DNA of 64,000 nt from Eledone cirrhosa. Its lineage: Eukaryota. The stretch covers positions 13,516,001-13,580,000 of the forward strand of contig OZ024762.1 in the NCBI GenBank assembly GCA_964016885.1, read 5' to 3'. How positions within the stretch are numbered: position 1 is the first letter of the stretch; each line of letters opens with the position of its first letter. Under the pieces are notes generated by a model. It saw only the letters and a program-made list of their open reading frames with translations, did not search any database and had not been told where the DNA came from. This document shows positions 13,026 through 62,619 of this stretch, in pieces. Both the position numbers and the translations under genes were made by a program.

Positions 13026-13544
13026 GATGATAATAATGATAATAATAATAGTGCAACCTTCTAAGGTTAAAATAGAACGAACAATATAACAATTAAAAAA
13101 CAAGAAAAAATAAAAATGAAGCGAAACAAATATTGAGGAAAATTGAAAATCTAAAAAAAAAAAGATGGCGGCCACGAAAATGTTTGAAAACAGCGGAAAC
13201 ATCTGAAAACAAGATGGCTGATGGAGCGATAAAACTGTAGCATAGATTTCTACAATATTTCTGTTGTGTGTTGTTGTGTGAAGTAGGGGGATGACAGGGA
13301 GGGGGTGTAGGAGGAGGAAGAGAAAGAGGAGGGGGAGGTGGAGTAGAAGGAGTGGGGAGAGGAAGCGTAGGAGAAGGAGGAGGGGGAGGAGGAGATGTAG
13401 GGAGAGGGACGATTGAATGATTATTCCTGATTTTTTAGTTAATGAAGTCTTTTGTTTGCAGGAATCAGTGCAAACTAATTAGATAATTTAGATAATTACA
13501 GTGGAATTAGACAGAGATAAATATAATAAAAATATAATATATAT

Positions 13545-14068
13545 ATAGAGAGAGAAGGAGGCGAGAGAAAGAGAGAGAAGGAGGCGAGAGAAGGGGAGAG
13601 AGAAGGGGACGATAGAAAGAGAGGGGAGAGAGAAGGGGGCGATTGAAAGAGAGAGGAGAGAGAAGGGGAGACAGAGTGAGAAAGAAAGAGAAGAGGCGAG
13701 AGAAAGAGAGAGAGATGGAGAGAGGGAGAAGGAGCCGAGAGAAAGAGAGGAGAAAAAGAGAGGTGGCGAGAGAGAGGGAGAGAGAGGAGAGAGAAGGGGA
13801 GACAGAGTGAGAAAGAAAGAGAAGAGGCGAGAGAAAGAGAGAGAGATGGAGAGAGAGAGGGAGAAGGAGCCGAGAGAAAGAGAGGAGAAAAAGAGAGGTG
13901 GCGAGAGAGAGGGAGAGAGAGGAGAGAGAAGGGGAGACAGAGTGAGAAAGAAAGAGAAGAGGCGAGAGAAAGAGAGAGAGATGGAGAGAGAGAGAGGGAG
14001 AAGGAGCCGAGAGAAAGAGAGAAGGAGAAAAAAGAGAGGTGGCGAGAGAGAGGGAGAGAAAGAGAGAA
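13545..14068. repeat. GA-rich purine tract with ~125-bp unit x3
   Basis: Repeated 'gagaaggggagacagagtgagaaagaaagagaagaggcgag...gaggtggcgag'. Confidence 0.9.
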
Positions 14069-14089
14069 AGATTTTAATGGATTAACGGT

Positions 14090-14450
14090 TGCTGAAACTT
14101 GTCTGACTGGTTAAGAACTTCACTTTGTTATCATCAGATGCCGGGTTCGATTCCACTACATGACATATTGATTATTATGTGACTGCCTTTGAGAGAGATA
14201 TGTCGACCTCTCGGGTATATCTGTCGTGGTACGTAAAAAGAGAGTAAGATTTGCTGGCCACTGCCAGCCATCGTGCCACCTCTGAGGCTGTGTCCCCACT
14301 TGTGCTTTGGAAACCACAAGCAGTCAATAATAACATGGGGCGTAAGCTCTCCTATCCCGATGTCATCTCCAGAGAGTCTCGTACTGAAATCCAGGACTTG
14401 GCAACGGTAAGAAACCGCTGGAGCTCAGCCATCGGGGACCAGACTCTTTT
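14090..14450 (+). mobile_element. SINE-like chimera: tRNA head plus RTE 3' end
   Basis: 'tggttaag...gggttcgattcc' A/B boxes; 14217 onward translates ISVVVRKKRVRFAGHC / HRATSEAVSPLVLWKP..RKLSYPDVISRE (frameshifted RTE C-terminus). Confidence 0.65.
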
Positions 14451-14479
14451 CCTTTATATATATATATATATATATATAT

Positions 14480-14648
14480 TGGTTTCTTGTATAGGCACAA
14501 GCCAGTGATTTTGGGGGAGGGGAAAGTCGATTAAATCGACTCCAGTGCGTGACTGGTACTTTATTTTATCGACCCCGTGAAGATGAAAGGCAAAGTTAAC
14601 CTCGGCGAAATTTGAAATCAGATCATAAAGGGCCGTAAATCTTTGCGT
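14480..14648 (-). mobile_element. MetaSINE-like SINE, 5' truncated
   Basis: Reverse complement matches family consensus. Confidence 0.85.
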
Positions 14649-14672
14649 ATATATATATATATATATATATAT

Positions 14673-14884
14673 ACGGGGTAACAGACGTAGCCATGCCTGT
14701 ATATTCCTTTCATTCTCACAAGCTCCGATGAATTGATTGGTTATAACTTTGTATTGGTGATCGAATAACGTGAAAACAAGCGGGTAGCGATCTCTAGACC
14801 TACCAGTTCAGAGAAACAATTGTCAGCAATGAGATTAAAAACCTTTTTTGTATAGCAAACCTTTTCACTCTTCTTTCCTGATTT
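14673..14884 (+). mobile_element. Penelope-like element, family B (HHR with long loop 2)
   Basis: tctcacaagct-CCGATGA-ttgattggt...accagttca-GAAAcaattgTC/agcaatgaga; homologous to 40581-40691(-); inside (TA)n. Confidence 0.65.
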
Positions 14885-59217: not shown

Positions 59218-59413
59218 TAAAATATAGAAGAGCTTCTACAGGACTAGAACTGTTTCATTCTTGAGAAATCATCAGGAAGCTCCCAATGATTTCTCACGAA
59301 TGAAACAGTTCTAGTCCTCTAGAAGCTCTTCTAAATTAAAACTTTTATAGTCTGCTACGTATTGAGTACCTTAATACTGTGGTTACCTCCGATTCAACCC
59401 GGAATAACTTATC
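59218..59413 (+). mobile_element. family A element, copy 3
   Basis: Tandem duplicate of copy 2; + core mutated, - core intact. Confidence 0.8.
59230..59283 (-). ncRNA. type I hammerhead ribozyme
   Basis: Reverse complement gagcttc-CTGATGA-tttctcaagaat-GAAAcagttctagtcctgTA-gaagctc; 7-bp perfect helix I. Confidence 0.82.
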
Positions 59414-59809
59414 TTTATATATATATATATATATATATATATATAATATATGTATATATATATGTCTGTGTGTGTCCCAAAGGAAATGATAAGTAACTAA
59501 AATCGATTTCGATAAGTATTCGACAAAATCCGTTGAATTACTACTGGAGACAGAAAGAATGTATAGAGGCCTTTTTTGATGAATCGAACGTCGCATCTGC
59601 CAGATGACGTTCGTGGGTATTAGTGCAACTTATCCCAGTTCTACTCAACCTCAGTGTCCAGTGTCGTAGAATTACTTACACCGTCTTTTTAGTTGTACCT
59701 CAGCTGGTTTTCTCAACTATTAGAGTTGTTGACTATTATTGTGTTTCTTTGCGTTGGGATGCACATTTTTCAATCTGCAAATATTCACACACAATATCTA
59801 TGCCAATAT

Positions 59810-59975
59810 GTCTATCTATCTATCTATCTATCTATCTATCTATCTATCTATCTATCTATCTATCTATCTATCTATCTATCTATCAAATCTATCTATCAAA
59901 TCTATCTATCTATCTATCTATCTATCTATCTATCTATCTATCTATCTATCTATCTATCTATCTATCTATCTATCT
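59810..59975. repeat. (TCTA)n
   Basis: Direct reading of the sequence. Confidence 0.97.
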
Positions 59976-60146
59976 CTCTATCTATACCTCTCTCTCCATA
60001 TATATATGTGTATGTCTGTGTGTTTTCGAGTGTTTTATATTTATATATATGTATATATATATATATATATATATATATATGTGTGTGTTTGTGTGTATAT
60101 ATATGTATATATGGATGTATATATTTATATATATATGTGTACATAT

Positions 60147-60226
60147 ACAGGGAGTCAAAAAAATGTATACACACTTCAACAGTCTTCCTTCTAATAAATA
60201 TGTGTATACTTTTTTGAGGACACCCT
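60147..60226. mobile_element. ~80-bp Tc1/mariner-like MITE
   Basis: TA-cagggagtcaaaaaaatgtatacac ... gtgtatacttttttgaggacacccta-TA, imperfect TIRs. Confidence 0.6.
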
Positions 60227-61684
60227 ATATATACATACATACATACATATATATATAAATATATATATATATTCATACATACATAGAGAAATTTTTCTAG
60301 TTTCAATATTTTTCTCTTCGTTACAATGTTGTATGGAAATACTGTATTTACAGCGATATTTATTATTATTGTTATTATTATTAGTATTATTATTATTATT
60401 ATTATTATTATTAATATTATTATTATTATTATTATTGTTATTATTATTATTATTAATCTCTTCATTGTTGCTGTCGATATATTTGTATATAACCAGTTTG
60501 TTTATTTAATATAATACGAGTAAATAAACTTATGATGGAAAACAAAAAATAGTTCATTAAATCGATACAACCACACACACACACACACACACACACACAC
60601 ACACACACACACACACACACACACACACATATATATTTATATATATATATATATATATATATACATTATGTGTGTGTGTGTGTGTGTAAAGTGAAACAGA
60701 TGTAAATGGGAAATGACAGACATGTTGATATGCTTATTATATATATGTGTAAATGTGCCCATGTCTATATCTATGTGTGTGTATATATATATATGTATGT
60801 GTGTATATATGTATGTGTGTATATATGTATGTGTGTATATATATATATGTATGTATATATATATATATATATATATACATATATATATATATACATATAT
60901 ATATATGTAAATGTACATGACATGTATATATATATATATGTATGTATATATATATATATATATATATATATATGTATGTATGTATATATATATGTATGTA
61001 TATATATATGTATGTATATATATATATATATATATATATATATGAATATATATGCATATATATGTATATATATGAATATATATGCGTATATATGAATATA
61101 TATATATATATGTATAAATATGTATATATATGAATATATATACATATATATATGAATATATCTCTCTATGTATTTATATGTTTACATATGTATTAATGTA
61201 TGTATCTCTTTCTCTCTCTCTCTCTCTCTTTCTATATATATATATATATATACATATATACACCAAATAACGCCTCAGTGAAATATACCAGAAATGGGAG
61301 ATAAAAAAGTGAAGAAGTCGCCATATTTACTTTTTTGTGTAATTGTATTTGACGACCTAAGAAGATTCCTAGGTGAAAATATTCATTTTTGTGTGGCGCA
61401 ATATGCGCATGCGCACACACTTATACACGCACTAACACATGTATACATACGCATACATATGTATTTATATGTATATATATATATATATATAATTTTATAT
61501 TTATATATATATATATACATAAATATATGTATATATATAAATATACATACATATATATATACACACACACACACATATATATATATATAATTTTATATTT
61601 ATATATATATATATATATATACATAAATATATGTATATATATAAATATACATATATATATATATATATATATATATAATCATAC

Positions 61685-61838
61685 GTGAAGGCTGAGTGGT
61701 TAGAGCATTTGTTTGACAATCATGAGGTTGTGAGTTCCATTCCCGAGCAGGACACTTCATTTCGCCTGGTGTTGAGACCGATAGATAGTATTAGCAATTG
61801 GAAAGACCAATGGAAACATTGCTTCCTCGGTCCAATTT
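61685..61838 (+). mobile_element. CORE-family SINE, internally deleted
   Basis: tRNA head 'gagtggttagagc..gagttccattccc' plus family tail. Confidence 0.78.
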
Positions 61839-62619
61839 GTTGGCTTTCTGTGGCTCGGGCTTCAGTAACTTCTCCCGAGACTTCTATAAACTGGTGAGAT
61901 AAAATATAACACACATATATATCTATCTATCTATCTAAATATATATATATATATATATATATACATGCAAGCAAGAAAAAGTTGTTTGGTGAAATTAAAC
62001 CAATCTATAGTAAGATTGTACACACACACACACACACACACACACACACACACACACACACACACTTACACACACTTATACACCCTTTAATATACACATT
62101 CACAAATACATACACACCTATACACACACATGCACAAATACATATACTGATACACACGCATGAATACACCTACATAAACTTACATACAACACACGTGTAC
62201 ACACATGCAGACGCATGCACACACATATATACACATAAATACACACACACTTACATGCTTATAATCAAATTCACACGCACACGCACACGCACACATACAC
62301 ACACAGCACATAGCTTTAAAAGCTTTAGGAAATCACAAGTGTTTCGTTGGACGATCGCTGTACATAAAATGGCGGTTGATTTCTGAAGGTGTTCAAAACA
62401 GTCGCCATTAGACGAGAAACTAACCACCTTAGACATGTCTTCCAGATTCTTATTTACAGACAACAAACGAAAGACCAACAGCAATGTCACCACATACAGT
62501 TTATTTCCTTACCTTTTAGCTACCCACACCCCTACCGTGTAAACATAAAACTAAGTGCTGCAAATAATTCCTATTAGTGAAAAATGAAAGTAGTATGTAT
62601 GACATAGTATTTGTATATG

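What the first reader, a model, noticed from the sequence alone, without database searches (positions are those of the whole stretch)
13162..62374. Excess of YY1/PHO motifs scattered across the unique-sequence islands
Seen: AANATGGCG on either strand at 13162 (AAGATGGCGGCC), 24417, 25391, 29133, 29892, 29935, 35803 (GCCGCCATCTTG), 49696, 53622, 61319 and 62366. Near matches occur at 10691, 13211, 19216, 19686, 32183 and 62403. None of the 11 lies in a recognised repeat and their flanks are unrelated. My rough estimate (about 25 kb non-microsatellite, about 35% GC) expects fewer than 1 by chance. Known: this is the YY1/Pleiohomeotic site, which nucleates Polycomb response elements in Drosophila. 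Inference: a dispersed PRE-like or looping-anchor array around a developmental locus.
Basis: partly seen in the sequence, partly recalled or inferred. Interest (0 to 1): 0.7.

Follow-up and report, generated by a model that had tools for sequence, protein, structure and literature searches.

The report
Scattered YY1 sites in noncoding DNA
This apparently gene-free stretch holds eleven exact copies of the DNA word recognised by the transcription factor YY1, roughly ten times more than chance, but they are likely ordinary scattered YY1 sites, at a density only a little above a published cuttlefish genome average, and not a special Polycomb array.

Summary
Observation confirmed. All 11 AANATGGCG sites sit at the stated coordinates, against 0.77 expected. 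After repeat masking this is the top non-microsatellite word. One-base variants are rare, flanks are unrelated and the ATGs open no real reading frames. The word is the published YY1 consensus (PMC1904287).

The sites are mostly single, unclustered and show no clear Drosophila PRE partner motifs. No homeobox or other family-level exon appeared in 300 of 532 frames scanned. A published cuttlefish background has the YY1 motif in 2.0% of 500-bp windows. This window has 2.3-5.5%, so much of the excess over chance is probably genome-wide. YY1 is not listed as enriched at octopus loop anchors.

One new feature: the best YY1 site (35801-35812) lies 64 nt from the window's only exact CTCF core match (35724-35736), a candidate insulator or loop anchor.

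Best reading: real YY1 sites in ordinary regulatory islands, a pattern already reported in annelids and a sea anemone. An octopus genome background and conservation could not be tested.

The parts
13162..13170 (+). YY1 consensus site, 11 of 12 to the HOMER 12-mer, after an A run; a one-mismatch site follows in tandem at 13211
13211..13219 (+). near-match YY1 site AAGATGGCT, 49 nt from 13162
24417..24425 (-). YY1 consensus site with following G
25391..25399 (+). YY1 consensus site with following G
29133..29141 (-). YY1 consensus site after an A run
29892..29900 (+). YY1 consensus site; convergent pair with 29935
   Evidence: 10-nt inverted arms, 32 nt apart, no further hairpin
29935..29943 (-). 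YY1 consensus site, one mismatch to CAARATGGCGGC
35679..35872 (.). 194-nt unique island holding the best YY1 site and two CTCF-like words; candidate insulator or loop anchor (inferred)
35724..35736 (-). only exact match in the window to a CTCF core consensus; 64 nt from the YY1 12-mer, same strand
   Evidence: recalled 13-nt consensus, 0 matches in 100 shuffles; 12-nt core of the HOMER consensus, exact; full 20-nt HOMER consensus not matched at 3 mismatches
35853..35865 (-). weaker CTCF-like word, 2 mismatches; may be chance
   Evidence: 9 such matches against 5.5 expected
49696..49704 (-). YY1 consensus site with following G
53622..53630 (+). YY1 consensus site
61319..61327 (-). YY1 consensus site, the only one with T at the free position
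62366..62374 (+). YY1 consensus site with following G; a convergent weaker ATGGCG lies at 62403

Best explanation
The eleven words are exact YY1 consensus sites lying mostly one to an island in unique non-coding DNA between microsatellites; they are likely kept by selection as ordinary YY1 docking points of enhancers and insulators, at a density that is probably typical of cephalopod regulatory DNA and not peculiar to this locus. Shown: the word, its excess over chance, its sharp specificity, and its independence from shared flanks and reading frames. Inferred: YY1's four zinc fingers bind some of these sites when the island is open and the CpG is unmethylated. Bound YY1 then bridges islands to each other or to a promoter outside the window, as proposed for vertebrate enhancer-promoter loops and annelid boundaries. 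The island at 35679-35872, where the best YY1 site meets a CTCF core, is the most likely anchor.
For: 11 seen against 0.77. All 24 one-base variants have 0-3 hits outside repeats, and the next best of 60 reshuffled cores has 5. The two A bases that PMC1904287 (passages) reports YY1 needs are the ones fixed here. Flank identity equals shuffled controls (0.311 vs 0.317 upstream, 0.263 vs 0.268 downstream). Sites are spread evenly per open base (densest 6 kb holds 5, P=0.13). Cuttlefish genome background carries the HOMER YY1 motif in 2.01% of 500-bp windows (PMC13652810 Supplementary Data 9 row). Chance for this window's composition is 0.02-0.9% and this window has 2.3-5.5%. YY1 motifs are reported at 46.5% of Owenia TAD boundaries, at Nematostella insulation boundaries, in amphioxus promoters and in annelid unmethylated promoters. 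Octopus intergenic CpGs are reported as depleted of methylation (PMC9476566, passages), and CpG observed/expected here is 0.76.
Against: The background figure comes from another species, uses a score threshold I could not see, and was bracketed by mismatch counts only. At 2 mismatches the window is 2.7 times background (7 of 128 bins, P=0.015), and counting all strict sites gives 10 of 128 bins (P=0.0003 against 2.01%), so a local excess is possible. About 59% of the window is tandem repeat, so density per unique base is higher than the bin figure suggests. No binding, accessibility or conservation data were available. Unrelated transposons present once each in the window cannot be excluded.
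Confidence: 0.55

Rival explanations
1. The window is a locally YY1-rich architectural region, a boundary or loop hub well above genome average, anchored by the CTCF-plus-YY1 island at 35.7-35.9 kb.
For: Up to 2.7 times the cuttlefish background, more if all strict sites count. The only exact CTCF core lies 64 nt from the only perfect YY1 12-mer. CTCF-like motifs are reported at squid TAD boundaries (PMC9023564, passages) and at coleoid loop anchors (PMC13652810 section 9). Two convergent site pairs.
Against: A unique position falls within 100 nt of one of the 11 sites 8% of the time, and the pairing was noticed after the fact. The full 20-nt HOMER CTCF consensus is not matched at 3 mismatches, and 2-mismatch CTCF words are not in excess (9 vs 5.5). 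YY1 is only 2.18% vs 2.01% at cuttlefish anchors and is absent from the octopus and bobtail squid enriched lists, though those anchors were called at 50-100 kb resolution.
Confidence: 0.2
2. One reading: a dispersed array of PHO/YY1-nucleated Polycomb response elements silencing a neighbouring developmental gene.
For: The word is the PHO/YY1 site, and annelid YY1 keeps the Polycomb-recruiting REPO domain. H3K27me3 is present in octopus. 64 kb without a detectable exon fits a gene desert or long intron. Zeste words lie near 7 of 11 sites against 36% of controls, and Dsp1 words average 2.55 against 1.63 (about P=0.06 by hand for Zeste, uncorrected for 9 motifs).
Against: PMC6735708 (passages) states that paired motifs, not single ones, distinguish PREs. 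Here sites are mostly single and unclustered (P=0.52). The generic PHO core without AAN is at chance. GAF words are no more frequent near sites (4.4 vs 5.5), and GAF and GTGT are swamped by microsatellites. No transcription-factor exon was found in the window.
Confidence: 0.12
3. The sites are YY1 words carried in by several unrelated old transposons, each present once in the window, so no shared flank is visible.
For: The window is rich in mobile-element debris (5.6 kb recurs within it). Its commonest short repeat carries a one-mismatch version of the word in 6 copies. YY1 sites in LINE promoters are known (PMC11602158, search listing only).
Against: None of the 11 has that repeat's flanks or any shared flank. 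Best local alignment between site flanks scores 25, against a control 95th percentile of 23 and maximum of 44.
Confidence: 0.08
4. The excess is a chance or selection effect of picking one word after the fact, or the words are translation starts in a strong context.
For: At Markov order 3 the excess does not survive correction for about 229,000 patterns (about 0.1). The site at 35803 is followed after 16 coding bases by a splice-donor-like sequence.
Against: The word is a previously published motif, not an arbitrary one, and an unselected base follows the YY1 preference. Frames from the 11 ATGs are 2-33 codons, median 8, against a median of 11 for 300 control ATGs.
Confidence: 0.05

Closest known systems
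YY1 motifs at annelid TAD boundaries and loop anchors (Owenia, Dimorphilus, Capitella; bioRxiv 10.64898/2026.05.18.725834)
   Same: Same motif in intergenic and intronic DNA, in a probable fellow spiralian; anchors mostly link enhancers.
   Different: There the motif was tied to mapped boundaries and open chromatin. Here only sequence is known, and sites are spread over 49 kb, not focused at one anchor.
YY1 motif in cuttlefish genome background and loop anchors (PMC13652810, Supplementary Data 9)
   Same: Same 12-nt consensus; frequency of the same order (2.0-2.2% of 500-bp windows against 2.3-5.5% here).
   Different: Different species and an unseen score threshold; not listed as enriched at octopus anchors.
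Drosophila Polycomb response elements nucleated by PHO (PhoRC)
   Same: Same core word; likely non-coding surroundings.
   Different: PREs are compact elements with paired motifs. Here sites are mostly single, the generic PHO core is not in excess and partner motifs are uninformative.
YY1 motif at ubiquitous promoters (amphioxus, PMC6292497; annelid unmethylated promoters, PMC11292947)
   Same: Same motif; the 35803 site has a start-codon and donor-like context.
   Different: 10 of 11 sites have no donor-like sequence in their short frames, and CpG density near the sites is close to background (2.3-3.2 vs 2.5 per 100 nt).
CTCF-marked TAD boundaries in squid (PMC9023564)
   Same: One exact CTCF core is present at 35724-35736.
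   Different: A single site; the full HOMER consensus is not matched; no contact map for this region.

Membership tests
YY1/PHO binding site | Matches the consensus CGCCATNTT | tested here: met
   11 exact matches; consensus from PMC1904287 passages
YY1/PHO binding site | Specificity at the bases YY1 needs, and the extended G preference | tested here: met
   One-base variants have 0-3 hits outside repeats; G follows in 6 of 11, P=0.003
YY1/PHO binding site | Occupied by YY1 in vivo, with the CpG unmethylated | not testable with these tools
   No ChIP or methylome data; CpG observed/expected 0.76 is compatible
Drosophila-type Polycomb response element | Paired or clustered PHO sites within a few hundred bases | tested here: not met
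   1 of 10 gaps at 220 nt or less, P=0.52; generic core at chance; three loose pairs if near matches are counted
Drosophila-type Polycomb response element | Partner motifs (GAF, Zeste, GTGT, Dsp1, Sp1/KLF) enriched around PHO sites | tested here: inconclusive
   No clear excess within 250 nt; slight rise for Zeste and Dsp1; microsatellites saturate GAF and GTGT
Drosophila-type Polycomb response element | Neighbouring developmental transcription-factor gene | tested here: inconclusive
   No Pfam family at cut-off in 300 of 532 frames; no WFxNxR signature in six frames; DNA outside the window not available
Drosophila-type Polycomb response element | PcG binding, H3K27me3 and heritable silencing of a reporter | not testable with these tools
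   Needs experiments
YY1-marked TAD boundary or loop anchor (annelid type) | Motif enriched above the genome's own background | tested here: inconclusive
   1.2-2.7 times a cuttlefish proxy; no related loci in the open collections
YY1-marked TAD boundary or loop anchor (annelid type) | Lies in open chromatin at a mapped boundary or anchor | not testable with these tools
   No ATAC or contact data for the window
CTCF insulator site | Match to the CTCF consensus | tested here: inconclusive
   Core exact at 35724-35736; full 20-nt consensus not matched at 3 mismatches
Dispersed repeat family | Shared flanks among the copies | tested here: not met
   Flank identity equals shuffles; local alignments within the control range; families present once in the window not testable
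YY1 motif overlapping a start codon | Open frame or first exon from the ATG | tested here: not met
   2-33 codons, median 8; donor-like site only at 35803

The most novel reading that the evidence does not exclude
The window is part of a cephalopod developmental gene desert organised by YY1: a field of single YY1 sites recruits Polycomb and builds loops around a CTCF-YY1 insulator at 35.7-35.9 kb. This would show sequence-directed, PHO-style Polycomb targeting in a mollusc, in a dispersed form unlike compact fly PREs.
Probability: 0.12. Interest if true: 0.7.

Novelty: new member of a known kind. Interest (0 to 1): 0.3.

Why it matters
Which factor anchors loops and recruits Polycomb in spiralians is open: YY1 is proposed for annelids, and CTCF-like motifs are reported for squid. 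If this window proved to be far above its genome's background and bound, it would give a concrete test locus with both motifs in one 194-nt island. If the density is genome-wide, the practical lesson is that YY1 words exceed shuffled expectation in cephalopod non-coding DNA generally, so such an excess alone should not be read as a Polycomb element.

Tried and rejected
Hidden repeat within the window: rejected by self-BLAST masking and flank alignment; the repeat finder on the whole window was swamped by microsatellites. Start codons: rejected for 10 of 11 sites. Origin from the common short repeat: it carries a one-mismatch word in 6 copies, but none of the 11 has its flanks. Hairpin or MITE behind the convergent pairs: the arms are only the motifs, 10 and 15 nt. 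RNA genes: 0 Rfam matches at gathering score and 0 tRNAs. Host gene: 300 of 532 open frames of 22 aa or more were scanned against Pfam (the 150 longest, then the 150 longest of the 269 others lying mostly outside interspersed repeats). None reached a curated cut-off. Seven frames had sub-cut-off hits, among them one C2H2 finger at 54440-54610 (22.8 bits vs 25.2) and Homeobox_KN at 23785-23937 (15 bits vs 24, 0 stretches), read as a retroelement tail and noise. Looking for more DNA of the same kind of organism: two scans of bacterial and archaeal genomes and one plasmid search gave nothing; metagenome and viral contigs were not searched. The organism stayed unverified; the cluster look-up could not be made. 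The chance column was inflated because real sites under the mask were carried into the simulations; one search replaces it. A literature search for the 9-mers returned mostly primers.
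Full report
Setting. The window is 29% GC overall, with one 200-base gap at 1925-2124. Tandem and low-complexity sequence covers 42.3 kb. A further 5.6 kb recurs within the window, and 16.1 kb is unique (36.5% GC, CpG observed/expected 0.76). The look of the sequence (dense TA, CA, GA and AAC microsatellites plus a tRNA-like short repeat) fits an octopod by my recall. No call verified the organism.

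The observation. AANATGGCG occurs 11 times at the stated coordinates, against a mean of 0.77 and a maximum of 4 in 100 shuffles. The longer AARATGGCGG occurs 6 times against 0.03. With repeats masked, 10 sites remain in 20.2 kb or 8 in 15.7 kb, against 0.25-1.13 expected for Markov orders 0-4 and 1.8-2.2 for order 5. Among patterns of eight fixed bases plus one free position with at least 4 hits in the strict set, it ranks 9 of 2462 at order 2 and 13 at order 3, behind only microsatellite-like words and its own sibling. Correcting for about 229,000 possible patterns leaves about 5e-4 at order 2 and about 0.1 at order 3.

It is the YY1 word. PMC1904287 (passages) gives the consensus CGCCATNTT, the reverse complement of the pattern. 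It reports that positions 8 and 9 matter for binding and that the zinc fingers are almost unchanged across animals. In the window all 24 one-base variants have 0-3 hits outside repeats, and the next best of 60 reshuffled cores has 5. The excess is confined to the full word: ATGGC without the AAN prefix is at chance (32 against 28-32).

What it is not. Flanks are unrelated: anchored identity equals shuffles, and local alignments average 16.8 against 18.2 for 296 control pairs. The common short repeat holds a one-mismatch word in 6 copies but accounts for none of the 11. Frames from the ATGs are 2-33 codons; only 35803 has a donor-like sequence, after 16 coding bases. No Rfam or tRNA match was found. 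Of 532 open frames of 22 aa or more, 300 were scanned against Pfam and none reached a cut-off. The predicted homeobox gene is therefore not visible inside the window; short exons and genes outside it remain possible.

PRE test. PMC6735708 (passages) says paired motifs, not single ones, distinguish fly PREs, and lists the motifs used. Only 1 of 10 gaps between strict sites is 220 nt or less (P=0.52), and the densest 6 kb holds 5 sites (P=0.13). With near matches there are three close pairs: 13162/13211, 29892/29935 and 62366/62403. Within 250 nt of sites, GAF (4.4 vs 5.5) and Sp1 (1.09 vs 1.12) are not raised. Zeste (7 of 11 vs 36%) and Dsp1 (2.55 vs 1.63) are slightly raised, and GTGT is dominated by microsatellites. 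The fly-type anatomy is not met.

Background. No related DNA was found in the open collections, so I used a published proxy. PMC13652810 (abstract, section 9, passages and rows of supplementary file 2) reports HOMER scans of 500-bp windows. In cuttlefish, YY1 is in 2.18% of loop-anchor windows and 2.01% of background windows. YY1 appears once in that file, so it is not among the enriched motifs listed for octopus (305 rows) or bobtail squid (291 rows). Those anchors were called at 50-100 kb, and one scanned PDF supplement could not be read. I could not see HOMER's threshold and bracketed it by mismatches to CAARATGGCGGC. At 1 mismatch the window has 3 of 128 bins (2.3%; chance 0.02-0.07%). At 2 mismatches it has 7 of 128 (5.5%; chance 0.5-0.9%). 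At 3 mismatches chance alone exceeds 2.01%, so that level is too loose. The window is thus 1.2-2.7 times the proxy (P=0.48 and 0.015), while the proxy itself is at least twice chance. Against this reading: all strict sites together fill 10 of 128 bins (P=0.0003 against 2.01%), the proxy is another species, and this window is mostly tandem repeat.

The only exact match to a CTCF core (recalled consensus CCASYAGRKGGCR; HOMER core) is at 35724-35736, 64 nt from the only perfect YY1 12-mer and on the same strand. A weaker CTCF-like word lies on the other side at 35853. Chance proximity to one of the 11 sites is 8%, the full 20-nt consensus is not matched, and 2-mismatch words are not in excess. 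It is a candidate only.

Mechanism. Shown: a specific, non-repeat, non-coding excess of YY1 words. Inferred: selection keeps them because YY1 binds open, unmethylated islands and bridges them to other regulatory elements. Octopus intergenic CpGs are reported as poorly methylated and H3K27me3 is present (PMC9476566, passages). Polycomb recruitment is possible, since annelid YY1 keeps the REPO domain, but nothing here points to it over a plain enhancer or insulator role.

Comparison with what is known. YY1 motifs mark 46.5% of TAD boundaries and 38.3% of loop anchors in Owenia (bioRxiv 10.64898/2026.05.18.725834: abstract, passages, sections 5 and 9; supplements closed). They also mark insulation boundaries in Nematostella (PMC12221973, passages), amphioxus promoters (PMC6292497, passages), annelid unmethylated promoters (PMC11292947, passages) and accessible chromatin in a sponge (PMC8896464, passage). 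Squid boundaries carry a CTCF-like motif (PMC9023564, passages; no YY1 mention in its main text). Searches for YY1 with cephalopod (11 papers), YY1 with octopus (11 of 12 listed) and octopus with ATAC-seq and motif (18 of 23 listed) showed no title or abstract start on YY1 sites or PREs in an octopus; this covers the held library only.

Verdict. A locus-specific Polycomb or looping array is unproven and less likely than a genome-wide tendency. Interest 0.3.

Noticed in passing
window 35679-35872: Exact CTCF core, perfect YY1 12-mer and a weaker CTCF-like word on the same strand in one 194-nt island; the YY1 ATG is also followed by a donor-like sequence, so a short minus-strand first exon is possible.
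   Followed up: partly
window 12146-12369, 12831-13020, 14501-14628, 18042-18328, 21592-21777, 24999-25162, 28577-28760, 31399-31604, 38956-39051, 44177-44367: About ten full or partial copies of a roughly 200-nt short repeat (SINE-like by recall). Six carry a word one base from the YY1 consensus, so they are a potential source of new sites.
   Followed up: partly
window 46122-46766: Fold-back palindrome (arms of 157 and 153 nt, 93-94% complementary) of a coding fragment with 18 unnamed protein relatives at 56-87% identity; read as a LINE 3' end by recall; may be an assembly or insertion artefact.
   Followed up: partly
window 12593-12678: 39-nt-arm hairpin, 95% complementary, between TA runs; half copies appear near 27140, 44640, 56013 and 58870; MITE-like.
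   Followed up: partly
window 54440-54610: Single C2H2 zinc-finger-like frame below the Pfam cut-off, next to an interspersed repeat; likely a retroelement tail and not a transcription-factor exon.
   Followed up: partly
window 10689, 19213, 37535: Three copies of AACAATGGCG, a YY1 near match overlapping a Sox-like AACAATGG word (Sox label recalled); two lie at the edge of AAC-rich runs.
   Followed up: no
window 13467-13510 and 34325-34420: Short unique islands dense in TAAT/ATTA words, resembling homeodomain-bound enhancers by eye; not tested statistically.
   Followed up: no
window 7186-7601: Tandem array with a 72-nt unit, 5.1 copies at 96% identity.
   Followed up: no
window 11366-11886: Perfect AC run of 260 units, unusually pure; possibly an assembly effect.
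   Followed up: no
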